A stretch of DNA of 64,000 bases from Mobula hypostoma. Taxonomy: Eukaryota. Under the pieces are notes generated by a model. That model was not told the origin of the DNA. It did not search any database and saw nothing but the letters and a program-made list of their open reading frames with translations. The position numbers were made by a program, and so were the translations under genes. The DNA is taken from positions 1,736,001-1,800,000 of the forward strand of contig NC_086097.1 of assembly GCF_963921235.1 (NCBI RefSeq). Direction: 5' to 3'. Of this stretch, positions 1 to 63,930 are shown one piece after another. How positions within the stretch are numbered: the first letter of the stretch is position 1; each line of letters opens with the position of its first letter.

Positions 1-1557
1 TGTCCTCTCATGTTAGCCATTTCAGCCCTGGGAAAAGCCTCTACCTATCCACACAATCAATGCCTCTCATCATCTTATACACCTCTATCAGGTCACCTCT
101 CATCCTCCGTCACTCCAAGGAGAAAAGACTGAATTCACTCAACCTATTCTCAAAAGGCATACTCCCCAATCCGGGCAACATCCTTGTAAATCTCCTCTGC
201 ATCCTTTCTATGGTTTCCACATCCTTCCTGTAGTGAGGTGACCAGAACTGAGCACAGTACTCCAACTGGGGTCTGACCAGGGTCCTATATAGCTGCAACA
301 TTACCTCTCGGCTCCTAAATTCAATTCCACGATTGATGAAGGCCAATGCACCATATGCCTTCTTAACCACAGAGTCAACCTGCGCAGCTGCTTTGAGTGT
401 ATGGACTCGGACCCCAAGATCCCTCTGATCCTCCACACTGCCAAGAGTCTTACCATTAATACTATATTCTGTCATCATATTTGACCTACCAAAATGAACC
501 ACTTCACACTTATCTGGGTTGAACTCCATCTGCCACTTCTCAGCCCAGTTTTGCATCCTATCAATGTCCCGCTGTAATCTCTGACAGCCCTCCACACTAT
601 CCACAACACCTCCAACCTTTGTGTCATCAGCAAATTTACTAACCCATCCCTCCACTTCTTCATCCAGGCCATTTATAAAAATCACAAAGAGTAAGGGTCC
701 CAGAACAGATCTCTGAGGCACACCACTGGTCACCGACCTCCATGCAGAATATGACCCGTCTACAACCATTCTTTGCCTAATGTGAGCAAGCCAGTTCTGG
801 ATCCACAAAGCAATGTCCCCTTGGATCCCACGCCTCCTTACTTTCTCAATAAGCCTTGCATTGGGTACCTTATCAAATGCCTTGCTAAAATCCATATACA
901 GTACATCTACTGCTCTTCCTCCTTCAATAAGATAGAAGTCGAAAAATTGTTTCCATTGTTCGGTGAGACTAGAACTAGGGGACATTGCCTCAAGATTCAG
1001 GGGAGAAGATTTAGGACGGAGATGAGGAGAAATTGTTTTTCTCAGGGAATGGTGAATCTGTGGAATTCTCTGCCCAGGGAAGCAGCTGAGGCTTCTTCAC
1101 TAAATATATTTAAGATACAGTTGGATAGATTTTTACATAGTAAGGGAATTAAGGGTTATGGGGAAAAGGCAGTTAGGTGGAGCTGAGTTTACAGACAGAT
1201 CAGCCATGATTTTATTGAATGGCGGGGCAGGCTCGAAGGGCCGGATGGCCTACTCCCGCTCCTATTTCTTATGTTCTTAAGTTCTTATCTCATACGGTCC
1301 CGGAGACTAATCCAACTTGATGCTTTCCAAAAGTTCCAGCACATCCTCTTTCTTAATGTCTATATGCTCAATCTTTTCAATCCACTGTAAGTCATCCCTA
1401 CAATCGCCAAGATCCTTTTCTGTAGTGAATACTGAAGCAAAGTATTCATTAAGTACCTCTGCTATCTCCTCCGGTTCCATACACACTTTCCCACTGTCAC
1501 ACTTGATAGGTCCTATTCTCTCACGTCTTATCCTCTTGCTCTTCACATACTTGTAGA
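1..1557 (-). mobile_element. CR1 LINE ORF2 fragments (minus), with a plus-strand CR1 3' fragment inserted at about 925-1275
   Basis: YMDFSKAFDKV, SGVPQ.SVLGP, KFADD and LEYCAQFWSPH in ORF 110-985; EVLNEYFASVF in ORF 1307-1546. Confidence 0.9.
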
Positions 1558-2619
1558 AAATCTCCTATCCTCCCTACCAGAGGCTTCTTTGAGATGTATT
1601 CCAAACCTACACGACCACGCAGAGATGCATCAGCTCCACTCCACTACAATTCCACAATTGCAATTTCCAACAAGAGTCAAATTTTAGTTATTTGAAGTAT
1701 TCATACAAAAATACATAAAATATGTTACCTACCTCTGCCAAAGCATTGGTCACAATGAATATACAAAGGAAAAGGTTTTGAAATAGTCGAAAGCTTTTAC
1801 TAATTAGCACCTTTTCTAGCAATAAATATAAAGCAGTCTGGTTAGGGCCAGAAATGCACTTCTACAACAAAACTTGCCTATTCATTTACTTCCTACAAGC
1901 ACTGACTACAAGAGGTGGAGAGTCCTATTACAGTTGGACAAGATATTGGTAGAACTGCACCTGTAGCACTGTGCACGATTATGGTCACAATGACTATCAG
2001 ATATATGAACAGAATTAGGCCATTTGGCCCATCGAGTCTGCTCTGCCATTTCATCTTCCACCAAGGTCAAGGACAGTTTCTACCCTGCTGTTATAAGACT
2101 ATTAAATAGATCCATAGCACTATATGATTGACTCTTGGACTCATAATCTATTTCATGTAATTTCACACCTTATTGACTACCCACACAGCACTTTCTCTGC
2201 AACTGCTACTCATTGTCATTGTTTGACCTTGCTCTATCTCAATGCACTGTGTAAGCTTTTCACTCCTTAGTGATAATAAACCAATTACTTTTCATTGTAA
2301 CCTGTTTCACAATCAACAGCAAATCACAAACATGAGAAAATCTGCAGATGCTGGATGTGTGTGTTGTCACAATCAACAAGAGCATTTACTTTAGTATCAT
2401 CAGCAAACTTACCCATTATGCCTTGTGCTTTCGCATCCAAATCACTTACATGACAGAGGTTCCAATGTACCTCACCAGTCACGAACCTCCAGTTGGAGAA
2501 TCAACCTTCAATCATCACCTTGTTAGCTTCTCCTAAATCCCATCAGTCTAATCTTCTGGATCAGCAGGCCATCCTGCCATGTTGGACCTTGTGAAACACC
2601 CTTCCAAAGTCCCAATAAA

Positions 2620-2975
2620 TTACACCCACTCATCTATCCCCCTACTTACCTCTTCAAAAAACTCCAAAAGATTTGTCAAACATAACTTCCTACACACAAA
2701 ACCATGCTGACTATTCCTAATCAGGTGATGGTAGATCTCGTCCCTCAGAATTCCCTCCAGTAATGTCCCTGCAACAGAATTCAGCTCACTTGCCCTGTCC
2801 ATGCTACCTTTCTTGAGCAACGGAACAACATTAGCCACTCTCCAGTCTTCTGAATCTTCGCTAATATTGAAACAAGTATCTCTGCAGGGGCCTCTGTGGC
2901 CTCCCATAAGGTCCAGGAGCAGGGGTGCACTTGATCAGGCCCAGGGGATTTGCCAACCTTAATGCGCTTCAAGGC
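2620..2975 (-). mobile_element. Decayed CR1 RT fragment
   Basis: KSPGPD, WRVANVVPL, SQHGF..CLTNLLEFFEEV split over frames. Confidence 0.8.
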
Positions 2976-2983
2976 CATAAATA

Positions 2984-3385
2984 CAGTGCCTATAAAAAGT
3001 ATTCACCCTCCCCCCTTGGAAGTTTTCATGTTTTACTCTTTTACAACATTGAATCACAGTGGATTTAATTTGACACAGATCAATGGAAAAAGACTCTTTT
3101 GTGTCAAAGTGAAAACAGATCTCTGCAAAGAGATCTAAATTAATTACAAGTATAAACCACAAAGTAATTGATTGCGTAAGTATTTACCCCTTTCAAGTCA
3201 GTGTTCAGTAGATGCACCTTTGGCAGCAATTACAGCCACAAATTTTCAATTGGATCGAGGTCTGGACTCTGACTTGGCCACTCAAGATATTAACTTTGTT
3301 GTTTTTAAGCAACTCCAGTGCAGCTTTAGCTTTATTCTTTGGGAAGACAAATCTTCTCCTGAGTCACAGATCTCTCGCAGACTAC
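2984..3385. mobile_element. Tc1/mariner terminal remnant (IR/DR type)
   Basis: TA|CAGTGCCTATAAAAAGTATTCACCC terminus; similar inner direct repeat AAGTATTTACCCC at about 3178-3190. Confidence 0.65.
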
Positions 3386-3387
3386 TT

Positions 3388-3640
3388 AAGGAATAAAATG
3401 GATGATCTTGAAATTCAGCTACAGTTTGGCAAATATGATGTTGTGTCCATCTCTGAGACTTGGCTAAAGGATGGCTGCCATTGGGAGCTGAACGTCCAAG
3501 GATATACGGTGTATCAGAAAGATAGGTTAGTAGGCAAAGGGAGTGGTGTGGCTCTGTGTATAAGAAACAATATTAAATCATTAGAAAGAAATGACATAGG
3601 ATCGGAAGGTGTAGGGTCTCTGTGGGTTGAGCTAAGAAAT
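3388..3640 (+). mobile_element. CR1 APE endonuclease fragment
   Basis: RNKMDDLE..YDVVSISETWL..GSGVALCI; near-identical to about 32035-32270. Confidence 0.8.
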
Positions 3641-4729
3641 GTAGAGAAGATGTTGAAGCTGGAAGGTGTCTTTTCCACTGACAAGTTTGATGTGGGTTGT
3701 TCCAAGAGCACGCGTCACACTATCTGGTGACCGAGGATAGCCTGTTCAGAGAAAGGTTGTGGCGAATGGCCCCTGGAGAAGTGAAGGACGTTTGGCAGCA
3801 TTTGTGTAAGTTGAAGGAAGCTGGGATCATCGCTGAGTCCCGAAGCCCCTATGCGTCCCCAATAGTAGTGGCGCGAAAGAAGAATGGGAAGGTACGGATG
3901 TGTGTGGTCTATAAGACTCTGAACAGGCGCACCATCCCTGACCAGTATACTGTCCCGAGGATTGAAGATGCGCTGGCCTGCCTGAGTGGTGCAAAGTGGT
4001 TCAGTGTGCTGGACTTGAGGAGTGGATATTATCAGATCCCCATGAGTGAGGTTGACAAAGAGAAAATGGCAGTTATATGTCCACTGGGATTTTTCCAGTT
4101 CAAAAGGATGCCCAGGGCATCTCGGGAGCTCCTGCCGCCTTCCAGCAGGTCATGGAGAAGATGGTGGGGGATATGAACTTGCTTGAGGTGTTCATATATA
4201 TGGATGATCTCATAGTATTTGGATCTACCTTAGAAGAACATGAAGCGAGGCTGCTGAAAGTGCTGGGCCACCTGAAAGGTGGACAAGTGCCAGTTCTGCC
4301 AAACATCTGTTAGCTACATTGGGCACATAGTCTCATCATTGGGGTAGCTACAGACTCAGCTAAGATCAAGGTGGTTACCACTGGGCCAAGACCCCAGACA
4401 GTGAGCACTCTGCGCTTGTTCCTCAGGTTCTGTGGTTACTATTGGAGGTTTGTAAAAGGCTACACGAAAGTGAGTCACCTGTTGAATCAGCTTCTGTGCG
4501 GTTACCCTCCCTTGGGGAAGAAAGGGAGGGGAAAAAAAGGACAGGAAGGTGGAGAGTATCTTAGCCCATCAGAGCCCTTTGGACTGAGGTGGGATGCAAA
4601 ATGCTAGGAGGCTTTTCAGTCGCTGAAGGAGCTGCTGACCCAGGCACCGGTGCTGGCTTTTGCGGACCCCCGGTTGCCGTATGTACTGCACACGGATGCC
4701 AGCCGAGAGAGTTTAGGGGGCATCATGTA

Positions 4730-20594: not shown

Positions 20595-20907
20595 GAAACA
20601 GACTTTTCCCCTCCATCATCGGATTTCTGAATGGACAATTAGTCCACGAACACTACCTCGTTAATTTTTTTCTTTGCTTTCTCTATTTTTGCACTGTACT
20701 AATTTTATAATATATTATATTCTCATTGTAATTTATAGTATTTGAATTATGCATTGCCTCAAAACAGCAAATTTCACATCATATGCTAGAGATATTAAAA
20801 TTGATTCGATGATAATCACACTGACTGTTAATCGCACTAACTCACCAACCGGGTCAATCGCCCTGACTCTGGGTTAACTCACTGACTCTGCGTTAATCTC
20901 ACTAGTT

Positions 20908-20970
20908 GACTGCGCCTCTTCCTATAGATGCTGCTTGGCCTGCTGCGTTCACCAGCAACTTTGATGTATG
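20908..20970 (+). mobile_element. 63-bp Penelope-tail mini-insertion
   Basis: Identical to 28181-28243; flanked by direct repeat TCACTAGTT (20899-20907 / 20971-20979). Confidence 0.85.
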
Positions 20971-20999
20971 TCACTAGTTAACCCCTCTGTTTCCATTTG

Positions 21000-26919: not shown

Positions 26920-27135
26920 ACTTTCCTGGTAGCATCCTTGACAAATTGTATAAGATTGGTTAGACACAACCTACCACTCACAAAGCCATGCTGAATATTC
27001 CTACTCAGTTCCTGTCCATCCAAATACTCATATATCTAAACAACAGGAATTCTGCAGATGCTGGAAATTCAAGCAACATACATCAAAGTTGCTGGTGAAC
27101 GCAGCAGGCCAGGCAGCATCTCTAAGAAGAGGCGC

Positions 27136-27171
27136 AGTCGACGTTTCAGGCCAAGACCCTTCGTCAGGACT
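27136..27171 (-). ncRNA. Minimal type I hammerhead ribozyme (PLE terminus), intact core
   Basis: AGUC-CUGACGA-AGGGUCUUGGCCU-GAAA-C-GUC^GACU: stem I AGUC/GACU, conserved boxes, loop-less palindromic stem III ACGU. Confidence 0.75.
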
Positions 27172-28148
27172 AACTGAAGGAAGAGTGAGTAAGGGATTTG
27201 AAAGCTGGAGGGGGAGGGGGAGATCCAAAATGATAGGAGAAGACAGGAGGGGGAGGGATAGAGCCAAGAGCTGGACAGGTGATAGACAGAAGGGGATACG
27301 AGAGGATCATGGGACAGGAGGTCCGGGAAGAGAGACAAGGGGGGGGTGACCCAGAGGATGGGCAAGAGGTATATTCAGAGGGACAGAGGGAGAAAAAGGA
27401 GAGTGAGAGAAAGAATGTGTGCATAAAAATGAGTAACAGATGGGGTACGAGGGGGAGGTGGGGCCTTAGCGGAAGTTAGAGAAGTCGATGTTCATGCCAT
27501 CAGGTTGGAGGCTACCCAGACGGAATGTAAGGTGTTGTTCCTCCAACCTGAGTGTGGCCTCATCTCCACAGTAGAGGAGGCCGTGGACAGACATGTCAGA
27601 ATGGGAATGGGATGTGGAATTAAAATGTGTGGCCACTGGGAGATCCTGCTTTCTCTGGCGGACAGAGAAAGCAGGATCTCCCAGAGGCCACACATTTTAA
27701 TTCCACATCCCATTTCCATTCTGACATGTCCATCCACGGCCTCCTCTACTGTAAAGATGAAGCCACACTCAGGTTGGAGGAACAACACCTTACATTCCGT
27801 CTGGGTAGCCTCCAACCTGATGGCATGAACATCGACTTCTCTAACTTCCGCTAAGGCCCCACCTCCCCCTCGTACCCCATCTGTTACTCATTTTTATGCA
27901 CACATTCTTTCTCTCACTCTCCTTTTTCTCCCTCTGTCCCTCTGAATATACCTCTTGCCCATCCTCTGGGTCACCCCCCCCTTGTCTCTCTTCCCGGACC
28001 TCCTGTCCCATGATCCTCTCGTATCCCCTTTTGCCTATCACCTGTCCAGCTCTCGGCTCTATCCCTCCCCCTCCTGTCTTCTCCTATCATTTTGCATCTC
28101 CCCCTCCCCCTCCAGCTTTCAAATCCCTTACTCACTCTTCCTTCAGTT

Positions 28149-28184
28149 AGTCCTGACAAAGGGTCTCGGCCTGAAACGTCGACT
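28149..28184 (+). ncRNA. Hammerhead ribozyme copy with G8A core mutation
   Basis: AGTC-CTGACAA-AGGGTCTCGGCCT-GAAACGTC-GACT. Confidence 0.6.
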
Positions 28185-28714
28185 GCGCCTCTTCCTATAG
28201 ATGCTGCTTGGCCTGCTGCGTTCACCAGCAACTTTGATGTATGTTACTCATATATCTGGTCTCTTACAAAACCTTCCAATAACTTTCCCACAACTGGTGT
28301 CAGACTCACTGGCCTATAATTTCCTGGTTTATGTTTAGAGCCTTTCTTAAACAGTGGAACAATATTGGCCATCCTCCAATCCTCTGGTACTATTTCTGTT
28401 GCTTCGGGTGTTGTAAATATCTCTGCTAGAGCCCCAGCAATTTCTGTACTTGCCTCCTACAGATCCGGGGGAACACTTTATCAGGCCCTGGGGATTTATC
28501 CATCTTAATCTGCCTCAGGACAGCAAACACCTCCTCCTCTAATCTGTACAGAACTCATGAAGTTGATGCCACTTTGCCTCACCTCTATAGACTCTGTGTC
28601 CAATTGCCTCACTTCTGTAGATTCTGAGTCTGACTCCTGAGTAAACACAGATATAAACAATCCATTTAAGATCTCCCTCATCTCTTTTGGCTCCATACAT
28701 AGCTATCCATTCTG

Positions 28715-41579: not shown

Positions 41580-42510
41580 CTATCAGGAAGGCCTTCAAGT
41601 TCTCCGCTTCTCTCTGGACAACAGACCCGACCAGCTCCCCTCCACCACCCTCCTCCGTCTGGTAGAACCGCTCCTCACCCTTAACAATTTCCCTTTCTGC
41701 TCCTTCCCTCCCCGCTCTTTCTCAGAACTCAGGGTATAGCCACGGGCCGCGGCCATGCTTACCGTTTCATTAGCGAGTGGAACAATTTATGTTCCAGGTC
41801 CCTCAGGGCCACATTGACGACTGCATGCACTCATTCTGAGCTCGTCAATTTCATCAACTTTCCTCCAATTTCCAACAGCCCTTAAATTCCCTTAGTCCAT
41901 TTCTGACATCTTTCTCGGTCTCTCTGGAGACAAGACTGTCCAATGATTTTTTTATTTATAAACTTCCCGATTCCCACAGATATATTGACTCCACCCAAAC
42001 TGTCACTTGAATAAATGCTGTTCCCTTTTCTCGGTTCCTTCGTCTCCGCAGCATCTGTACCCAGGATGAGGCCTTCATTTGCAGAACATCTGAAAGAACG
42101 GGGTTCCCTTCCTCCACCATTGACGCTACCCTCACCCGCATCTCCTCCATCCGCCGCCGCACCTGATGAAGGGTTTCAGCCCGAAACGTCGACCATACTC
42201 TTTTTCCATAGATACTGCCTGACCTGCTGGGTTCCTCCAACATTTTGATGTGTTGCTGGGATTTCCAGTATCCGCAGATTATCTCGTTTGTGAACAGTCT
42301 ACGTTTCGGGCCGACTCCCTTCACCGGGCCACAATTCTCTGTAATTCCTGCCATCTTCATTTGGATCAAAATACATCTCCCAATTTCTCAGTTCATCTCC
42401 CCTCCCCCCGCCTTCTTATTCTGGCATTTTCCCAGTCCCGGCGAAGGGCGTCAACTGTTTATTCATTTCCATAGATACTGGCTGAGCTGAGTTCTCCCAG
42501 GATTTTTGCT
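41580..42510 (+). mobile_element. Decayed Penelope-like RT fragment with rearranged termini
   Basis: DNRPDQ.PS.T.LLRL.E..LTLNNF and AVPFSRFLRLRSIC PLE-RT remnants; CTGATGAAGGG..CCCGAAACGTCGAC at 42163-42193. Confidence 0.7.
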
Positions 42511-55363: not shown

Positions 55364-58300
55364 TTCTGCACTCTAATTAGCTGTTGTCACATTGACTGTG
55401 TGTTCCCAATAGCTGATGTCACATTGAATGTGTGTGCCAGTTGAGCCTACATTCCAATTAGTTGTTGTCACATGACTGTGTTCCCATTAGCTGTTGTCCC
55501 ATTGGCCGTGCCTTCCCATTAGCTGTTGTCCCATTGGCCGTGCCTTCCCATTAGCTGTTGTCCCATTGGCCGTGCGTGCCCATTAGCTGTTGTCCCATTG
55601 GCCGTGCGTGCCCATTAGCTGTTGTCACATTGACTGTGTGTGCCCATGGAGCCTACATTCCCATTAGCTGTACACATCCAGCTAATGTGGTGGTGGTTTA
55701 TAGCGCATGTGTTATCATGAGAGGCTGGACCAACTTGGGTTGTTTTCCCTGCAGCTTTGAAGGTTGAAGGCAGATCTGATGGAGGATAATAAAATTATGA
55801 GAAGCATTATGAGAGTAGACAGGGTGCATCTGTTTCCCAGGGTGAAATGTCTGACACTAGAGGGTGAGGGGGATCATTTGAAAGGAGATTTCAGTGGCAA
55901 GGTTTTTTGCACAGAGAGTGGTGGATGTCTGGAATGTGCTGCCTGGGGTGGTGGTAGAGGCAAATACATTGGAGGCTTTTAAGGGATGGCTGGATAGGCA
56001 CATGGATGTGAGGAAGATGGAGGGATATGGACATGGTGTGGGTAGGAGGGATTAGTGTTTAGGTGTTTTTATTTGCTTTTTAGCGGGTTGGGCACAACAT
56101 TATGGGCCAAATGGCTTGTTCCAGTGCTGTACTGTTCCATGTTTGATGTTCTAATATCCCAGAGTTCCTTCCTCTAAACGCAAACACACTCACACAGAGC
56201 AGGGGTGTACACGCATTTTCTGTTATAGGTGCACTTACTCCATGCTGCAGCTGGCAAATCGCAAAGTTCAGGCCTGATGGTCAAGGCCCTTGAATTGGCG
56301 AGACTGGAGGTGGCCTGTCTTGGGGTCAGAGGCCTTTCTTTGTGTAGGGACAGGTCTTGCTTTGCTTTGTTTTACCGTGTTCACATTGTTCTGCTGAGTG
56401 TTGTGGGTATGCAATGTTGGCGTGGGAACACGTGGCTACACTTGAGGGCTGCCTTAGACTGTGTTAGTTGTTAACGCAAACACCGCAGTTTCAAACGTAC
56501 ATGTGATACATGAATGAATGTGAATTTGAATCAGAAATCCACTTTCCTTACAGTTGCACTCTTTAACTACTGCAGTATGTTAGAGCACAGTTGGTGGGTT
56601 TCATTGTTACCCAGAGGATGGGGGACTGGATCAAGTCATTGGACTCACTGAGGCACCATTCCTCATCACACTGAATGAGTGAGGACCTCTGTCAGAACCA
56701 GTTGACCATGGATATTGTTCCTCGCTGTCTAGATACACAAGCCTGGGCAGTACGACATGGAGGGCAAGCCACTGCTGATGTAGCAAGCTGCCACTCTCTA
56801 TGCATCTGATGAATCCAAAGGAACGGCAGAGACCGATAACAGTTTGGTACCATCAGCATCACAGGAGTTGCAAGTCAGCATTGAACTCAATGTACGACTG
56901 CCTTAGGGATTCCAGCTCTGGATTTTTCCCTCACGTTTACTGCCAAATCTTCCTCCATGAGTGGGTGTAGTCGCAAGGCAATAGAGATTTGGGATCAGAG
57001 TTTTCCTTCTCCTTGATCAGCTGCCAACCACAGGCAATGAGCCCCTTCTGCCCGAAGGGACTGGCCTTAAGGTGCCAGCAACCCGTCTTTGCCTCTTCCC
57101 TTATCAGTATAAATGGTTCAGATGGGCTTAGTAGCTAACCCATAGGTGAAGTCCAGGAGCTGGATTTGGTTGTTAGAGGCTACCTGAGTTCCTCCAGCGT
57201 GTTGTGAGTGTTGCTTTGATCTCAGCATCTGCAGATTATTTTGTGTTTACGACTTTCAGGAACTTCCTCATCACATTACAGAAGGAACAAATACTGATGA
57301 GCTGAGGAGATGGTTTAGACGGAGTTATCTAACCTGGAAAAAGGCCATTCAGCTCAACCTGTCCATACTGACCAAGGTCCATATCCCCTTAACCTCTTCC
57401 TATCCAAGTTCTTCTTAAATGATAAAATTGTACCTGCCTCAACTACTTCCTCTGGCAGCTCATTCATTCACCACCCTCAGGTCCTGACTAAATCTTTCCC
57501 CCTCACCTTAAATCTCTGCTCTCTACTTTAGACTCTCTTACCCTGGGGAAAAGACTGTGATCATCCTCCTTTTCCTTATTTATGGCCCTCATGATTTTAC
57601 ATAGTTCTATTAAGTCACTCCGCAGCCTCCTACACTCAGGGAAAACAGTCCTAGCCTGTCCAGTTTCTCATAGAATACTACAGCGTTGAAACAGGCTAGC
57701 TGACCCATCAAATGCATGCCAAACTATTATTTTGCCTCGCCCCATCAACCTACACCTGGACCATAGCCGTCCATACCATTTCCATCCATGTACTTAGCCA
57801 AACTTCTTTGAAGTCATCATAATTCTGGTGATACCTTTTTGCTCCTCTCAATCTCAGTGATGTCCTTCCTATAGCTGGGTGATCAGAACTGCACACAGTA
57901 ATATGGTCTCACACTGCAACGACAGGAAAGCTCTACAACAGGTAGTCAAAAACCACCCAGCACATCACCTGCATCAGACTACCCGCCATCAAGGACACAA
58001 CTACAGAAAGGGCCAGTAACACCAGCTACTCTGCTCATGGACTGTTTGTCCCACTTCCATTAGGCAGCATCCTCGCCAGAACTACCAGACTCAAACGTTA
58101 ATTTCCCCAATCCGAATCAGAATCAGCTTTATTATCACCAGCAATGGTTGTGAAATTTGTTGACTTAACAGCAGCAGTTCAATGCAATACATAATATAAA
58201 AGAAAAAAAGTAAACATATATAAATAAGTAAATCAAATACAGTGTATGTATATTAAATAGATTAAAAATTATGCAAAAACAGAAATAACATATATTTAAA

Positions 58301-58423: not shown

Positions 58424-61400
58424 ACAAAATACTCTGCAGATGCTGGGGTCGAAGCAACACTCACAACACGCTGGAGGAACTCAGCAGGTCAGGCAGCATC
58501 CGTGGAAAAGATAAGTCGACGTTTTGGGCCGGAACCCTTCATCAGGACTGTAGAGGGAAGGGGCAGAGGCCCTATAAAGAAGGTGGGGGGGGAGGGTGGG
58601 AAGGAGAAGGCTGGTAGGTTCCAGGTGAAAAACCAGTAAGGGGAAAGATAAAGGGGTGGGGAAGGGAGGCAGGGAGGTGATAGGCAGGAGAGGTGAAGAA
58701 AGAATAGGAGAAAACACAATGGGTAGTAGAAGGAGGCGGAACCAGGAGGGAGGAGGTAGGCAGCTGGGGGAGGGGGCAGAGTGACATAGGGATAGAGGAA
58801 GGGAGGGGGAGGGAATTAACAGAAGTTGGAGAATTCTATGTTCATACCAAGGGGCTGGAGACTACATAGACGGTATATGAGGTGTTTCTCCTCCAACCTG
58901 AGTTTAGCCTCATCATGGCAGTAGAGGAGGCCATGTATGGACATATCTGAATGGGAGTGGGAAGCAGAGTTGAAGTGGGTGGCTACTGGGGGATCCTGTC
59001 TGTTTTGGCGGACGGAGCGGAGGTGCTCGATGAAGCGGTCCCCCAATCTGCGTCCGGTTTCACCGATGTAGAGGAGGCCGCAACGGGAGCACCGGATGCA
59101 ATAGATAGAACATAGGACATAGAATAGTACAGCACAGTACAGGCCCTTCGGCCCACAATGTTGTGCTGACCCTCAAACCCTGCCTCCCATATAAGCCCCC
59201 ACCTTAGATTCCTCCATATACCTGTCTAGTAGTCTCTTAAACTTCACTAGTGTATCTGCCTCCACCACTGACTCAGGCAGTGCAGTCCACGCACCAACCA
59301 CTCTCTGAGTAAAAAACCTTCCTCTAATATCCCCCTTGAACTTCCCATCCCTTACCTTAAAGCCATGTCCTCTTGTATTGAGCAGTGGTGCCCTGGGGAA
59401 GAGGCACTGGCTATCCACTCTATCTATTCCTCTTATTATCTTGTACACTTCTATCATGTCTCCTCTCATCCTCCTTCTCTCCAAAGAGTAAAGCCCTAGC
59501 TCCCTTAATCTCTGATCATAATGCATACTCTCTAAACCAGGCAGCATCCTGGTAAATCTCCTCTGTACCCTTTCCAATGCTTCCACATCCTTCCTATAGT
59601 GAGGTGACCAGAACTGGACACAGTACTGCAAGTGTGGCCTAACCAGAGTTTTATAGAGCTGCATCATTACCTCGTGACTCTTAAACTCTATCCCTCGACT
59701 TATGAAAGCTAATACCCCATAAGCTTTCTTAACTACCCTATCCACCTGTGAGGCAACTTTCAGGGATCTGTGGACATGTACCCCGAGATCCCTCTGCTCT
59801 TCCACACTACCAAGTATCCTGCCATTTACTTTGTACTCTGTCTTGGAGTTTGTCCTTCCAAAGTGTACCACCTCACACTTCCCCGGGTTGAACTCCATCT
59901 GCCACTTCTCAGCCCACTTCTGCATCCTATCAATGTCTCTCTGCAATCTTTGACAATACTCTACACTATCTACAACACCACCAACCTTTGTGTCGTCTGC
60001 AAACTTGCCAACCCACCCTTCTATCCCCACATCCAGGTCGTTAATAAAAATCACGAAAAGTAGAGGTCCCAGAACAGATCCTTGTGGGATACCACTAGTC
60101 ACAATCTCCAATCTGAATGTACTCCCTCCACCACCACCCTCTGCCTTCTGCAGGCAAGCCAATTCTGAATCCACCTGGCCAAACTTCCCTGGATCCCATG
60201 CCTTCTAACTTTCTGAATAAGCCGACCGTGTGGAACCTTGTTAAATGCCTTACAAAAATCCATATAGATCACATCCACTGCACTACCCTCATCTATATGC
60301 CTGGTCACCTCCTCAAAGAACTCTATCAGGCTTGTTAGACACGATCTGCCCTTCACAAAGCCATGCTGACTGTCCCTGATCAGACCATGATTCTCTAAAT
60401 GCCTATAGATCCTATCTCTAAGAATCTTTTCCCAACAGCTTTCCCACCACAGACGTAAGGCTCACTGGTGTATAATTACCCGGACTATCCCTACTACCTT
60501 TTTTGAACAAGGGAACAACATTCACCTCCCTCCAATCCTCCGGTACCATTTCCGTGGACCACGAGGACATAAAGATCCTAGCCAGAGGCTCAGCAATCTC
60601 TTCTCTCGCCTCGTGGAGCAGCCTGGGGAATATTCCGTCAGGCCCCGGGGACTTATCTGTCCTAATGTATTTTAACAACTCCAACACCTCTTCTCCCTTA
60701 ATATCAGCATGCTCCAGAACATAAACCTCACTCATATTGTGCTCACCATCATCAAGTTCCCTCTCATTGGTGAATATTGAAGAGAAGTATTCATTGAGGA
60801 CCTCGCTCACTTCCACAGCCTCCAGGCACATCTTTCCACCTTTATCTCTAATCGGTCCTACCTTCACTCCTGTCATCCTTTTTTTTTCCTTCACATAATT
60901 GAAGAATGCCTTGGGGTTTTCCCTTACCCTACTCGCCAAGGCCTTCTCATGCCCCCTTCTTGCTCTTCTCAGCCCCTTCTTAAGCTCCTTTCTTGCTTCC
61001 CTATATTCCTCAATAGACCCATCTGATCCTTGCTTCCTAAACCTCATGTATGCTGCCTTCTTCCTCCTGACTAGATTTTCCACCTCACTTGTCACCCATG
61101 GTTCCTTCACCCTACCATTCTTTATCTTCCTCACCGGGACAAATTTATCCCTAACATCCTGCAAGACATCTCTAAACATCGACCACATGGCCATAGTACA
61201 TTTCCCTGCAAAAACATCATCCCAATTCACACCCGCAAGTTCTAGCCTTATAGCCTCATAATTTGCCTTTCCCCAATTAAAAATTTTCCTGTCCTCTTTG
61301 ATTCTATCCTTTTCCATGATAATTATAAAGGCCAGGGAGCGGTGCTCACTGTCCCCCAGATGCTCACCCACTGAGAGATCTGTGACCTGACCCGGTTCAT

Positions 61401-62610
61401 TACCTAGTACTAGATCTAGTATGGCATTCCCCCTGGTCGGCCTGTCCACATACTGTGACAGGAATCCATCCTGGACACACTTAACAAATTCTGCCCCATC
61501 TAAACCCTTGGAACTAATCAGGTGCCAATCAATATTAGGGAAGTTAAAATCACCCATGATAGCAACCCTGTTATTTTTACACCTTTCCAAAATCTGCCTC
61601 CCAATCTGCTCCTCTGTATCTCTGCTGCTACCAGGGGGGCTATAGAATACCCCCAGTAGAGTAACTGCTCCCTTCCTGTTCCTGACTTCCACCCATATTG
61701 ACTCAAAAGAGGATCCTGCTACATTACCCACCCTTTCTGTAGCTGTAATAGTATCCCTGACCAGTAATGCCACCCCTCCTCCCCTTTTTCCACCCTCTCT
61801 ATCCCTTTTAAAGCACTGAAATCCAGGAATATTGAGAATCCATTCCTGCCCTGGTGCCAGCCAAGTCTCTGTAATGGCCACTACATCATAATTCCATGTA
61901 TGTATCCAAGCTCTCAGTTCATCACCTTTGTTCCTGATGCTTCTTGCATTGATGACCCCAACAGACTCACAAGTGAAGTGTTGCCTCACTTGCAAGGATG
62001 GTTTGGGGCTCTGAATGATGGCAAGAGAGGAGGTGTAGGGACAGGTGTAGCACTTGCGCTTACAGGGATAAGTGCCAAGTGGGAGATCCGTGGGGAGTGT
62101 GGACCAGGGAGTTGCGGAGGGACCGATCCCTGTGGAGGGGGGTGGAGGGAGAAAAATGTGCTTAGTGGTGGGGTCCTGTTGAAGGTGGCAGAAATTGCGG
62201 AGGATAATGTGCTGGATCCGGAGACTGGTGGGGTGGTAGGTGAGGACAAGGGGAACTCTGTCCCTGTTGTGGTGACGGGAGGATGGGGTGAAGGCCGAAG
62301 TGCGGGAAATGGAGGAGATGCAGGTGAGGGCATCATTAATGACAGCAGAAGGGAAACCATGATCCTTAAAGAAAGAGGGCATCTGAGATGTCCTGGAATG
62401 GAAAACCTCATCATCGGAGCAGGTGTGGCAAAGACGGAGGAACTGGGAATAGAAAATGGCATTTTTGCATGTGGCGGGGTGGGAAGAGGTAGTTATGAGA
62501 GTCAGTGGGCTTGCAGAAGATGACAGTGGACAGTCTGTCTCCAGAGATGGAGACCAAGAGATCAAAAAAGGGGAGAGAAGTGTCCGAGATAGACCAAATG
62601 AATTTGAGGG
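58424..62610 (-). mobile_element. Penelope-like element (RT thumb, linker, GIY-YIG, 3' terminus) split by a CR1 at 59105-61950
   Basis: SSHP..CKNAI.YSQFLRL, RVPLVLTYHP, CKRKCYTC, FTCESVGVI | YCIRCSRCGLLYIGET.RRL.DRF.EH..VATHFN..GMN; hammerhead remnant 58514-58549 (G12A). Confidence 0.9.
59105..61950 (-). mobile_element. Young CR1 with nearly complete ORF2 (APE+RT), two frameshifts
   Basis: NARSIRNK..ITETWL..MGDFN..DSEH; RT ORFs 60099-60356 and 59173-60174; TTCTATG tail at 59105-59125. Confidence 0.95.
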
Positions 62611-63739
62611 CTCATGCCCTGGGTGTTGGAGGTCCTTAATAATGGACACTGCCTTTCCGAGACATCGCTACCTGAAGATGTCCTGGGTACTTTGTAGGCT
62701 AGTGCCCAAGATGGAGCCGACTAAATTTACAACCCTCTGCAGCTTCTTTCAGTCCTGTGCAGTAGCCCCCTCCCCCCCCATACCAGACAGTGATGCAGCC
62801 TGTCAGAATGCTCTCCATGGTACATCTATAGAAGTTTTTGGGTGTATTTGTTGACATACCAAATCTCTTCAAACTCCTGATGAAGTATAGACGCTGTCTT
62901 GCTTTCTTTAGAACTGCATTGATATGTCTGGACCAGGTTAGATCCTCAGCGATCTTGACACCCAGGAACTTGAAGCTGCTCACTCTCTCCACTTCTGATC
63001 CCTCTATGAGGATTGGTATGTGTTCCTTCGTCTTACCCTTCCTGAAGTCGACAATCAGCTCTTTCGTCTTACCCTCGTTGAGTGCCAGGTTGTTGCTGCA
63101 GCACCACTCCATTAGTTGGCATATCTCACTCCTGTAGCCCTCTGGTCACCACCTGAGATTCTACCAACAATGGTTGTATCACCAGCAAATTTATAGATGG
63201 TATTTGAGCTATGCCCAGACACAGTCATGGGGATATAGAGAGTAGAGCAGTGTGCTAAGCACACACCTTGGAGGTGTGCCAGTGTTGATCGTCAGCGAGG
63301 AGGAGATGTTATCACCAATCCACAGAGATTGTGTTCTTCCGATAGGAAGTCGAGGATCCAATTACAGAGGGAGGTACAAAGGCCCAAGTTCTGCAACTTC
63401 TCAATCAGGATTGTGGGAATGATGTATTAAATGCTGAGCTATAGTCGATGAACAGAATCCTGACGTAGGTGTTTGTGTTGGCAGTGAGGCTGATCAACAC
63501 CTCCACCCACTAACCCACCCCTCTACACCCCACCACCACTACTTTATCACTTTCTGTCAAAGTCACCTTATGTACAGACACTCCTGTGCCTAGCATCACT
63601 CTATGGACATAAAATTATATTTATTGTTTTTTTTATTATTGTGTTCTTTATTTCATCGTGTCATTTTGTGTGGTATCAGATCCCCAATAACAGTTATTTC
63701 ATTCTCCCTTACATTCCCGCAGATACACAGGTCTTGTAA

Positions 63740-63930
63740 AACCTCCCCCCCCCCCACCCCACCCCACCTTTTTATTCAGCTTCTTCCCACTTCCTTTCCA
63801 GTCCCGATGAAGGGTCTCGGCCCGAAATATCTACTGGTTATTCCCCTCTATAATGTTGTCTGACCTGCAGAATTCCTTTCGCATTTACGTGTCTTTCTCT
63901 GGATTTCCAGCATCTGCAGTGTCCTGTGTT
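63740..63930 (+). mobile_element. Decayed PLE terminus with degenerate hammerhead
   Basis: CAGTC-CCGATGA-AGGGTCTCGGCCC-GAAATATC-TACTG then TTTCCAGCATCTGCAG tail. Confidence 0.6.

What the first reader, a model, noticed from the sequence alone, without database searches (positions are those of the whole stretch)
27136..27171. Minimal, dimer-dependent hammerhead ribozyme family in Penelope termini (about 7 copies in the window)
Seen: the minus strand reads AGUC|CUGACGA|AGGGUCUUGGCCU|GAAA|C|GUC^|GACU. This is a type I hammerhead with stem I AGUC/GACU, both conserved boxes, and a stem III reduced to the loop-less palindrome ACGU. Related copies lie at 28149-28184 (G8A), 42163-42193 (core intact, stem I lost), 42296-42330 (inverted, degenerate), 42433-42457 (degenerate), 58514-58549 (G12A) and 63799-63836 (degenerate). 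The G8A and G12A core mutations fall on CpGs. Established: PLEs carry minimal hammerheads in their pseudo-LTRs that can fold only as dimers. Inference: this copy may still be cleavage-competent, and such motifs are probably very abundant genome-wide in this species.
Basis: partly seen in the sequence, partly recalled or inferred. Interest (0 to 1): 0.78.

Follow-up and report, generated by a model that had tools for sequence, protein, structure and literature searches.

The report
Penelope-element minimal hammerhead, dead copy
The flagged 36 bases are a complete minimal hammerhead self-cutting RNA motif, but it is the already-described kind carried in the end-repeats of Penelope-like jumping genes, and this copy sits in a broken, folded-back insertion of a family that fills this genome.

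Summary
Observation confirmed. Window 27136-27171 (minus) reads as a type I hammerhead with both core boxes, a 4-5 bp helix I, a short helix II and helix III reduced to the palindrome ACGU.

Interpretation supported. In full-length relatives, two direct copies of the motif lie 3,516 nt apart. They flank one 1,043-aa open frame with reverse-transcriptase and C-terminal GIY-YIG signatures, with variable pseudo-LTRs, a 37-nt one-sided "tail" and adjacent inverted truncated copies. This is the published anatomy of Penelope-like elements and their minimal hammerheads (PMC4209133, PMC8557442).

The genome holds 57,542 core-intact copies and 133,938 within 3 mismatches.

The flagged copy is one arm of a 1.2-kb fold-back, 5'-truncated insertion with a 12-bp target duplication. 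Its intact core is chance survival.

Cleavage was not testable: no RNA runs, no covariation, and nearest-neighbour energies disfavour the active dimer.

New side observation: copy 5' ends pile up at the first base of helix I, not at the cut site.

This scan has found the same kind before on other shark-like DNA.

The parts
27136..27171 (-). Minimal type I hammerhead motif with an intact core. Helix I is AGTC/GACT; C3-A9 is CTGACGA; an extra A follows; helix II is GGGT/GCCT with loop CTTG; then GAAA; helix III is the palindrome ACGT. C17 is at 27140, so the predicted cut lies between 27140 and 27139.
28149..28184 (+). Mirror copy in the other arm of the fold-back, carrying G8A (CTGACAA).
27075..27657 (-). 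Left arm of the fold-back insertion: a 5'-truncated 3' part of the element (end of the endonuclease coding region, 3' UTR, hammerhead and a further 65 nt).
   Evidence: 96% identical to the full-length relative
27663..28245 (+). Right arm, the same length as the left arm. The arms are 97% complementary and separated by a 5-nt spacer (27658-27662).
27660..27854 (+). Remnant of the C-terminal end of the GIY-YIG endonuclease frame (...LEEQHLTFRLGSLQPDGMNIDFSNFR, then stop). The stop lies about 295 nt upstream of the hammerhead.
   Evidence: the 64-aa remnant alone has no Pfam hit; the longer relative L011 hits GIY-YIG
27038..27074 (-). 37-nt 'tail', present at the left end of the insertion only. 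In tandem copies the same 37 nt run on into the open frame.
   Evidence: 100% identity
27026..27037 (.). Target-site duplication ACTCATATATCT, left copy.
   Evidence: by eye
28246..28257 (.). Target-site duplication ACTCATATATCT, right copy.
   Evidence: by eye
42159..42194 (+). Copy from an older subfamily. The core is intact (CTGATGA...GAAACGTC) but the 5' strand of helix I is replaced. It is joined directly to an RT-coding remnant (41582-42150).
42296..42330 (-). Degenerate inverted copy (U4C, A6G, C17A).
   Evidence: E=0.0013
42433..42457 (+). Degenerate copy with an internal deletion.
   Evidence: E=0.69
58514..58549 (-). Copy from an older subfamily, carrying G12A. It belongs to an element remnant at 58470-59106 that continues at 61952-62611.
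63799..63836 (+). Degenerate copy from an older subfamily (U4C, loop ACGU>AUAU, G1.1U).
20908..20971 (+). 64-nt solo piece of the young family. It starts at G1.1, the base 3' of the cut site, give or take 2 nt. It is flanked by the 8-bp duplication CACTAGTT (20900-20907 and 20972-20979).

Best explanation
The motif is the minimal hammerhead ribozyme carried in the pseudo-LTR of a canonical, endonuclease-bearing Penelope-like element (PLE). The CX4CxxC linker points to the Neptune type.

Shown here:
- The sequence has every conserved hammerhead core position, a 4-5 bp helix I and a 4-bp helix II preceded by an unpaired A.
- Helix III consists only of the palindrome ACGU.
- In full-length relatives the motif occurs twice in direct orientation, 3.5 kb apart, flanking one RT plus GIY-YIG open frame.
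- The upstream cut site lies 60 nt before the first in-frame ATG.
- The flagged copy is one arm of a 5'-truncated, folded-back, dead insertion. Its intact core is survival by chance, since its mirror copy has already lost G8 at a CpG.

Inferred from the architecture and from published work on other PLEs:
- One copy cannot close helix III. Two copies must pair ACGU with ACGU, and each helix I 5' strand must pair with the other copy's 3' strand, to build two active sites.
- Cutting would therefore happen only in transcripts or particles that hold two motifs, probably with help from the element's protein.
- The likely job is trimming of upstream sequence, or unit-length processing, of master-copy transcripts.
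- The RNA that is actually copied into new insertions keeps its 3' hammerhead uncut, because every insertion carries the 65 nt beyond the cut site in one piece with the rest.
For: Sequence and chance controls.

Abundance: 28,753 forward plus 28,789 reverse exact matches to the core-intact degenerate 31-mer, and 66,974 plus 66,964 within 3 mismatches. Reversed-pattern controls gave 0.

Full-length anatomy:
- In L035, L039, L040 and L042, two direct motifs lie about 3,515 nt apart (3,512-3,516). L036 keeps a truncated upstream motif that fails the core pattern.
- Upstream repeats measure 94, 403, 660 and at least 1,056 nt.
- Inverted truncated copies lie upstream in L039 and L042.
- A 37-nt tail runs into a 1,043-aa open frame.

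Protein evidence:
- Pfam GIY-YIG at residues 946-1020 and RVT_1 at 534-683 of that frame, both below the curated cut-offs.
- The nearest Atlas clusters (score 0.98) carry RVT_1 and GIY-YIG.
- The linker motif CKRNKCYTC is visible in the translations.
- 60 of 60 scored genomic matches to the RT are 97-100% identical, out of 127,781 first-look candidates.

Local context: 586-nt arms as the tool reports them (583 nt once the target duplication is set aside), 97% complementary, with a 5-nt spacer, a 12-bp target duplication and a one-sided tail.

Literature match:
- The minimal-hammerhead features and the observation of dual motifs on opposite strands are in PMC4209133.
- The inverted 5'-truncated copy and the one-sided 30-40 bp tail are in PMC8557442.
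- A protein-assisted hammerhead and uncut RNA as the insertion template are in PMC11167929 (passages).
Against: - No covariation supports the helices: 85.1% of cells pair, but 499 of 500 shuffles pair as many or more, and only 1 pair changes on both sides. The family is too uniform to test.
- No Rfam family, hammerhead models included, matches at gathering score or at E<=10.
- The dominant young form has U at 11.1 (79 of the 100 places listed). That gives G.U where PLE hammerheads are reported to keep G10.1-C11.1.
- Helix II is 4 bp, not the 6-8 bp reported for PLEs.
- Nearest-neighbour energies are unfavourable. The monomer optimum (-11.7 kcal/mol) pairs core bases G5-G8 with CGUC. The double-hammerhead fold scores -12.9, against -23.4 for two free monomers and -33.5 for the best dimer. 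These energies ignore the core's tertiary contacts.
- Simple 5' ends of copies do not pile up at the cut site.
- No RNA data could be laid.
- Both Pfam hits are below their gathering scores, and no solved structure matched by sequence.
Confidence: 0.85

Rival explanations
1. The block is kept for a role other than RNA self-cleavage. It could be part of the pseudo-LTR core promoter and transcription start, or a DNA/RNA hairpin that the reverse transcriptase uses to stop, switch template or snap back. On this view the hammerhead look is a vestige with little or no catalysis in this family.
For: - 5' ends of copies pile up at the first base of helix I: 3,362 there, against 546 and 654 three bases to either side.
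- A fold-back junction class reads ...CGTCAGGACT|GCGCC. That is what pairing of the DNA form of helix I would give (15 of the 100 places listed; L046, L054, L066 and L067).
- The successful young master has U11.1, and C7 completes a GACG/CGUC pairing that locks the core.
- Published work: hammerhead mutants do not change insertion in vitro, and no reads end at the cut site in Anolis (PMC11167929). PLE clades without hammerheads proliferate well (PMC8557442).
Against: - Every invariant hammerhead core position is kept across the young family and the older, 63-79% diverged subfamilies wherever the copies are not visibly decayed.
- The extra base after A9 and the palindromic helix III match the published PLE consensus feature by feature.
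- A promoter or stop signal would not need exactly these bases.
Confidence: 0.1
2. The short copies, including the flagged one, are not Penelope ends. They would be an independent non-autonomous element (a retrozyme- or SINE-like repeat) that merely shares its 3' end with the autonomous element.
For: - Very many copies are short, and many start exactly at AGTC.
- One 310-bp unit is repeated three times in tandem at C2:157816721-157817530.
- A preprint argues that animal retrozymes derive from PLE pseudo-LTRs (10.64898/2026.07.22.740005; abstract and passages read).
Against: - The flagged insertion's arms run 583 nt, back into the endonuclease coding region, at 96% identity to the full-length element.
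- Truncation points are spread along the element rather than fixed.
- Fold-back truncated copies with a one-sided tail are the described by-product of PLE insertion.
Confidence: 0.04

Closest known systems
Minimal hammerheads (min-HHR) in the pseudo-LTRs of metazoan Penelope-like elements (Cervera & De la Pena 2014, PMC4209133)
   Same: - Type I topology with a short helix I of 4-5 bp.
- An unpaired base between A9 and 10.1.
- Helix III reduced to a palindrome.
- Position in both flanking repeats of an RT-endonuclease frame.
- Most copies are solo or truncated, and pairs occur on opposite strands a few hundred bp apart.
- Massive copy numbers.
   Different: - Helix II is 4 bp here, not 6-8 bp.
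- The dominant form has G10.1.U11.1 instead of G-C.
- The family is nearly uniform, where the paper stresses extreme variability.
- Copy number is 57,542 core-intact and 133,938 within 3 mismatches. That is far above the ~4,000 (coelacanth) and ~9,000 (Xenopus) the paper calls remarkable.
Hammerhead of the Anolis Poseidon element PAc (PMC11167929; passages read)
   Same: - The hammerhead lies in the pseudo-LTR, next to the start of the open frame.
- The element uses an internal reverse-transcription start, which leaves a 'tail'.
- Insertion templates are uncut at the hammerhead.
   Different: - In PAc the frame starts inside the ribozyme and the cut is 26 bp after the start codon. Here the cut lies 60 nt before the first in-frame ATG.
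- PAc cleavage and its need for protein were shown at the bench. Nothing was tested here.
Double hammerheads of newt satellite and viroid RNAs (Forster et al. 1988; known to me only through citations in PMC4209133 and PMC6765202)
   Same: A helix III too weak to form within one copy, so that two copies must pair to build two active sites.
   Different: Those RNAs keep a short stem and a loop III and sit in close tandem repeats. Here there is no loop at all, and the partner copy is 3.5 kb away or on another RNA.
HDV-like ribozymes at the 5' end of R2 and L1Tc retrotransposons (review PMC6765202; passages read)
   Same: It probably works like them: a ribozyme just upstream of the element's frame that could free the element's RNA from upstream transcript.
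   Different: A different ribozyme class, active as a monomer, in non-LTR elements. 5' processing is shown for R2 and only inferred here.
Non-LTR retrozymes of animals (PMC7229834, search listing only; preprint 10.64898/2026.07.22.740005, abstract and passages read)
   Same: Hammerhead-bearing repeats related to PLE pseudo-LTRs.
   Different: Retrozymes are short tandem units processed to circles. The copies here are dispersed, truncated or folded-back ends of an autonomous element.

Membership tests
PLE minimal hammerhead (min-HHR) | Conserved core: C3 U4 G5 A6 N7 G8 A9 ... G12 A13 A14 ... A15.1/U16.1 and H17 | tested here: met
   CTGACGA...GAAA-CG-TC in the flagged copy. In the 14-sequence alignment, C3, G5, A6, A9, A13, A14, A15.1, U16.1 and C17 are invariant. 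U4, G8 and G12 are each broken in one decayed window copy.
PLE minimal hammerhead (min-HHR) | Type I topology with a short (4-5 bp) helix I | tested here: met
   AGUC/GACU plus a U.G pair. 76.5% of cells pair across 11 copies, decayed ones included.
PLE minimal hammerhead (min-HHR) | Unpaired nucleotide between A9 and 10.1 | tested here: met
   An A follows CTGAYGA in 14 of 14 aligned copies. It is unpaired if helix II is read as GGGU/GCCY.
PLE minimal hammerhead (min-HHR) | Conserved G10.1-C11.1 pair | tested here: inconclusive
   G-C in 6 and G.U in 4 of the 10 copies with letters at this pair. Of the first 100 genomic places listed, 79 have T at 11.1. The C>T lies on a CpG.
PLE minimal hammerhead (min-HHR) | Longer than usual helix II (6-8 bp) | tested here: not met
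   Only 4 pairs (GGGU/GCCY, one of them U.G) around a 4-nt loop.
PLE minimal hammerhead (min-HHR) | Palindromic 15.2-16.2 with no real loop 3, so helix III can form only between two copies | tested here: met
   A15.1-C-G-U16.1 is the palindrome ACGU. An intramolecular A-U pair would close a 2-nt loop.
PLE minimal hammerhead (min-HHR) | Located in both pseudo-LTRs that flank the RT-endonuclease frame | tested here: met
   Two direct motifs about 3,515 nt apart (3,512-3,516) around a 1,043-aa frame in L042. L035, L039 and L040 show the same layout, and L036 keeps a truncated upstream copy.
PLE minimal hammerhead (min-HHR) | Compensatory changes in the helices within consensus families | tested here: not met
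   1 pair changes on both sides, and the covariation score of 0.121 is below the shuffled mean of 0.176. The family is too uniform for this to be informative.
PLE minimal hammerhead (min-HHR) | Site-specific self-cleavage as a dimer | not testable with these tools
   No run is on record as RNA, and only contigs could be laid. Folding energies give no support.
Rfam hammerhead families | Score at or above a family's gathering threshold | tested here: not met
   0 matches at gathering score, and no hammerhead family among the 11 matches at E<=10. This is expected if the models require a helix III, which is my reading and was not tested.
Canonical endonuclease-bearing Penelope-like element | A single frame with RT followed by a C-terminal GIY-YIG endonuclease | tested here: met
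   RVT_1 at 534-683 (18.1 bits, cut-off 29.6) and GIY-YIG at 946-1020 (19.7 bits, cut-off 22.6) in one 1,043-aa frame. Both are below the curated cut-offs. Atlas neighbours at 0.98 carry both families. The ...LLYIGET... motif is visible by eye.
Canonical endonuclease-bearing Penelope-like element | Pseudo-LTR from partial tandem copies, an adjacent inverted 5'-truncated copy, and a 30-40 bp tail at one end | tested here: met
   Upstream repeats of 94 to at least 1,056 nt; inverted copies in L039 and L042; a 37-nt tail. In the window there are equal inverted arms with a tail on the left only.
Neptune/Nematis-type PLE | CX2-5CxxC zinc-finger-like linker upstream of GIY-YIG | tested here: met
   CKRNKCYTC is present in the translations of L007 and L010. 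No phylogeny was made, so the clade assignment is tentative.
Non-LTR retrozyme | Short tandem units, each with a hammerhead | tested here: not met
   The window copies are dispersed or inverted, not tandem. One 3 x 310-bp tandem was seen elsewhere in the genome.

The most novel reading that the evidence does not exclude
In this family the pseudo-LTR promoter starts transcription at the first base of helix I. The hammerhead would then be the first 32 nt of every element transcript. Self-cleavage would remove the cap and leave a 5'-OH RNA with a 60-nt leader before the open frame.

The genomic trace of this would be the pile-up of copy 5' ends at that base: 3,362, against about 600 three bases to either side. 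The fold-back class made by helix-I pairing of a cDNA that ends at the same base would be a second trace.

Two by-eye observations support it:
- TTA+1GTCC fits the metazoan initiator consensus.
- An A/T-rich TATA-like box lies 25-32 nt upstream in three diverged subfamilies.
Probability: 0.25. Interest if true: 0.6.

Novelty: new member of a known kind. Interest (0 to 1): 0.3.

Why it matters
As a hammerhead in a Penelope-like element it adds nothing new in kind.

It is still a useful case for two reasons.
- One uniform, very young family has about 134,000 motif copies and many open 1,043-aa frames. That gives far more fossil insertion junctions than the species studied so far.
- What the hammerhead does for the element is an open question. 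Here the junctions argue that the insertion template is not cut at its 3' hammerhead. They also show that copy 5' ends gather at the start of helix I rather than at the cut site.

If that start proves to be the transcription start, the ribozyme's job in these elements becomes directly testable.

Tried and rejected
- RNA evidence. No RNA holder was listed for the element. The four runs laid were contigs of unknown kind, so starts, ends and strand cannot be read. They showed only loose ends near the two alternative 3' termini (about L042 1060 and 1095-1100) and more cover toward the 3' end, which the tool says is not a copy number.
- Cut-site fossils. I asked whether copies start at G1.1. There are 487 genome-wide, against 141 three bases downstream and 280 four bases upstream. 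Of the 30 inspected, about 21 are inverted junctions (many with GAC/GACT microhomology, two of them one complex locus), 2 or 3 are small deletions or rearrangements, and only 6 are simple truncations. I therefore reject this as evidence for in vivo cleavage. The window's own example (20908-20971) stays an anecdote.
- Covariation gave none.
- Rfam gave no hammerhead hit. The microRNA-like hits at 27625-27695 are simply the centre of the fold-back.
- A sequence search of solved structures with the 1,043-aa frame gave 0 hits at E<=0.1.
- Literature. Lunse et al., on PLE hammerheads cleaving as dimers, is not held; I know it only from citing passages. A search combining hammerhead ribozyme, Penelope and cartilaginous-fish words listed no paper holding 'hammerhead ribozyme' among the 12 shown. 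Figures and supplements of PMC4209133, which hold the consensus drawings, were not seen.
- An extra-G signature of capped templates at the AGTC junctions was not seen. Among the 71 listed junctions left after dropping the TCC and CGA classes, 19 have G, 26 A and 26 C (hand tally).
- My first junction list was biased. The leading D excluded full copies of the main subfamily, which have C at that place, so I use it only for examples and not for proportions.

Full report
**1. What is in the window**

The minus strand of 27136-27171 reads AGTC CTGACGA A GGGTCTTGGCCT GAAA CG TC GACT. Mapped on hammerhead numbering:
- AGUC is the 5' strand of helix I.
- CUGACGA is C3-A9, and one extra A follows it.
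- GGGU/GCCU closes the loop CUUG as helix II.
- GAA is G12-A14.
- A15.1-C-G-U16.1 is the palindrome ACGU.
- C17 is at 27140, and GACU is the 3' strand of helix I.

The predicted cut lies between 27140 and 27139. An intramolecular A15.1-U16.1 pair would have to close a 2-nt loop, so one copy cannot form helix III.

The pattern CTGANGA-N6-30-GAAACGTC occurs twice in the window, against 0.02 expected. The 36-mer with up to 3 mismatches also occurs twice, against 0 expected.

A covariance model built from 14 copies recovers the five good ones by construction. It also finds 42295-42331(-) at E=0.0013, and 42433-42457 weakly at E=0.69. One further match, 56269-56306 at E=0.19, looks like chance. The G8A and G12A changes do lie on CpGs.

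**2. What carries it**

The flagged copy and the 28149 copy are the two arms of an inverted repeat. The tool reports 586 nt, 97% complementary, with a 5-nt spacer.

Read base by base, the insertion spans 27038-28245:
- The arms are 27075-27657(-) and 27663-28245(+), 583 nt each.
- A 37-nt extension lies on the left side only (27038-27074).
- A 12-bp target duplication ACTCATATATCT lies at 27026-27037 and 28246-28257.

Each arm begins inside the end of a coding region (...LEEQHLTFRLGSLQPDGMNIDFSNFR, then stop). It then runs through about 295 nt of pyrimidine-rich UTR, the hammerhead and 65 further bases.

**3. The full-length element**

I fetched 30 genomic copies and then longer loci. L042 shows the whole unit:
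- hammerhead core at 966-993;
- usual 3' end ...GATGTATGTT at 1058;
- the same 37 nt at 1059-1095, running straight into an open frame of 1,043 aa (1051-4179);
- about 300 nt of UTR;
- a second hammerhead at 4482-4509.

L035, L039 and L040 share this layout, with two direct motifs about 3,515 nt apart (3,512-3,516). L036 has an upstream repeat that starts inside the hammerhead, so its upstream motif fails the core pattern. Upstream repeats measure 94, 403, 660 and at least 1,056 nt. L039 and L042 also carry an inverted truncated copy just upstream.

The frame gives Pfam RVT_1 (residues 534-683) and GIY-YIG (946-1020), both below the curated cut-offs. Its nearest Atlas clusters (0.98) carry both families. 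The linker shows CKRNKCYTC.

An RT followed by a C-terminal GIY-YIG, variable pseudo-LTRs, an adjacent inverted truncated copy and a 30-40 bp one-sided tail are the published signature of canonical Penelope-like elements. The CX2-5CxxC linker is that of the Neptune and Nematis clades (PMC8557442, passages). No tree was built, so I call the clade tentative.

**4. Abundance and age**

- The core-intact degenerate 31-mer has 57,542 exact matches in the 3.48-Gb assembly.
- The dominant 31-mer has 133,938 matches within 3 mismatches.
- Reversed-pattern controls gave 0 in both cases.
- Of the first 100 places listed, 93 have C at position 7 and 79 have T at 11.1.
- All 60 scored RT matches are 97-100% identical, many with the 1,043-aa frame open, out of 127,781 first-look candidates.

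The family is therefore very young. The window also holds older relatives at 63-79% identity (41582-42251, 58470-59106 with 61952-62611, and 63751-63875).

**5. Comparison with the published motif**

I read the main text of Cervera and De la Pena 2014 (PMC4209133). They list a short helix I, an unpaired base between 9 and 10.1, a conserved G10.1-C11.1, a palindromic 15.2-16.2, a long helix II and consensus families rich in compensatory changes.

Here the first, second and fourth features are met. G10.1-C11.1 is kept in the older copies but is G.U in the dominant young form. Helix II has only 4 pairs. There is no covariation: 85.1% of cells pair, but 499 of 500 shuffles do as well.

Rfam has no match at all.

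I file it as a member of the PLE minimal-hammerhead kind on core, topology and position. Two secondary features differ, and catalysis is untested.

**6. Does it cut?**

I could not test this. No run is on record as RNA, and only contigs could be laid.

Nearest-neighbour folding gives:
- a monomer optimum of -11.7 kcal/mol, in which G5-A6-C7-G8 pair with C-G-U16.1-C17, an inactive hairpin;
- the double-hammerhead fold at -12.9;
- two free monomers at -23.4;
- the best dimer at -33.5.

These energies omit the core's tertiary contacts, so they are weak evidence. They do fit the published low activity in vitro and the need for protein in Anolis (PMC4209133; PMC11167929, passages).

At this locus, a transcript through the insertion would pair the motif with its antisense in a 583-bp hairpin. 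In addition, the copy has no upstream element sequence. Biologically it is a fossil.

**7. What the fossil junctions say**

Every insertion keeps the 65 nt beyond the cut site joined to the rest. The RNA that is reverse-transcribed is therefore uncut at its 3' hammerhead. This agrees with the bench result for Anolis.

I counted copies whose three preceding bases all differ from the family sequence.

At the cut site:

| Start position | Count |
|---|---|
| G1.1 | 487 |
| 3 bases downstream | 141 |
| 4 bases upstream | 280 |

Of the 30 inspected G1.1 cases, only 6 are simple truncations. Most of the rest are inverted junctions with GAC/GACT microhomology. There is thus no clear excess at the cut site.

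At the first base of helix I:

| Start position | Count |
|---|---|
| A of AGTC | 3,362 |
| 3 bases downstream | 546 |
| 3 bases upstream | 654 |

Of the 100 places listed, 19 TCC and 5 TAC cases look like native upstream sequence of older subfamilies, and 10 form a CGA class. That leaves 66 of 100.

The fold-back class ...CGTCAGGACT|GCGCC accounts for 15 of the 100 places listed. It is what a cDNA ending opposite that same A would produce if its 3' GACT paired with the AGTC copied from helix I's other strand.

I have no proof of the cause. The sequence TTAGTCC fits the initiator consensus as I recall it. An A/T-rich box also lies 25-32 nt upstream in the young family and in the diverged 58514 and 63799 copies (by eye). 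A transcription start at the head of the ribozyme is therefore my preferred, unproven reading.

**8. Verdict**

The thing is a new member of a known kind and was seen before by this scan on other shark-like DNA. It is ordinary in kind, remarkable only in number, and it comes with one side observation worth a bench test.

Noticed in passing
genome-wide; examples G000:C1:1327928, 6482288, 4901048, 7912105; locus L012 1497: 5' ends of copies pile up at the A of AGTC, the first base of helix I: 3,362, against 546 and 654 three bases to either side. The sequence TTAGTCC resembles an initiator element.
   Followed up: partly
window 58571-58577 (minus strand) and 63765-63772; loci L005-L011 about 25-32 nt upstream of AGTC: An A/T-rich TATA-like box (TTTATAG, TTTTTATT, TTTCAAAT/TTTAAAAT) sits 25-32 nt upstream of helix I in three diverged subfamilies, within otherwise C/T-rich sequence. 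This was seen by eye only.
   Followed up: no
window 20908-20971: A 64-nt solo piece of the young family starts at the base just 3' of the ribozyme cut site and has an 8-bp target duplication, CACTAGTT. Genome-wide, such starts are not clearly enriched.
   Followed up: yes
window 27625-27695: Sub-threshold Rfam hits to several microRNA families on both strands are the perfect hairpin at the centre of the fold-back insertion, not microRNA genes.
   Followed up: yes
window 41582-42251: In an older copy, an RT-coding remnant abuts the hammerhead directly. The stretch matching positions 2454-3423 of the young unit (endonuclease and UTR) is missing. I did not determine whether this is a deletion or a subfamily without the endonuclease.
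   Followed up: no
window 58470-59106 and 61952-62611: These two minus-strand pieces continue each other in element coordinates (2834/2835). One old copy is therefore split by about 2.8 kb of inserted DNA.
   Followed up: no
L031 5254-8480 (G000:C1:516200-526150): In this copy the RT part lies on the opposite strand to the endonuclease and 3' part. This is an internal inversion of the kind twin priming gives in LINEs.
   Followed up: no
G000:C2:157816721-157817530: Three tandem units of 310 bp each contain the hammerhead, the tail and the first part of the open frame. The array is retrozyme-like.
   Followed up: no
window 27136-27171 and the family at large: In the young family, position 7 is C rather than the T of older copies. 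This completes a 4-bp GACG/CGUC pairing between the catalytic core and the cut-site strand, and that pairing dominates the predicted monomer fold.
   Followed up: partly
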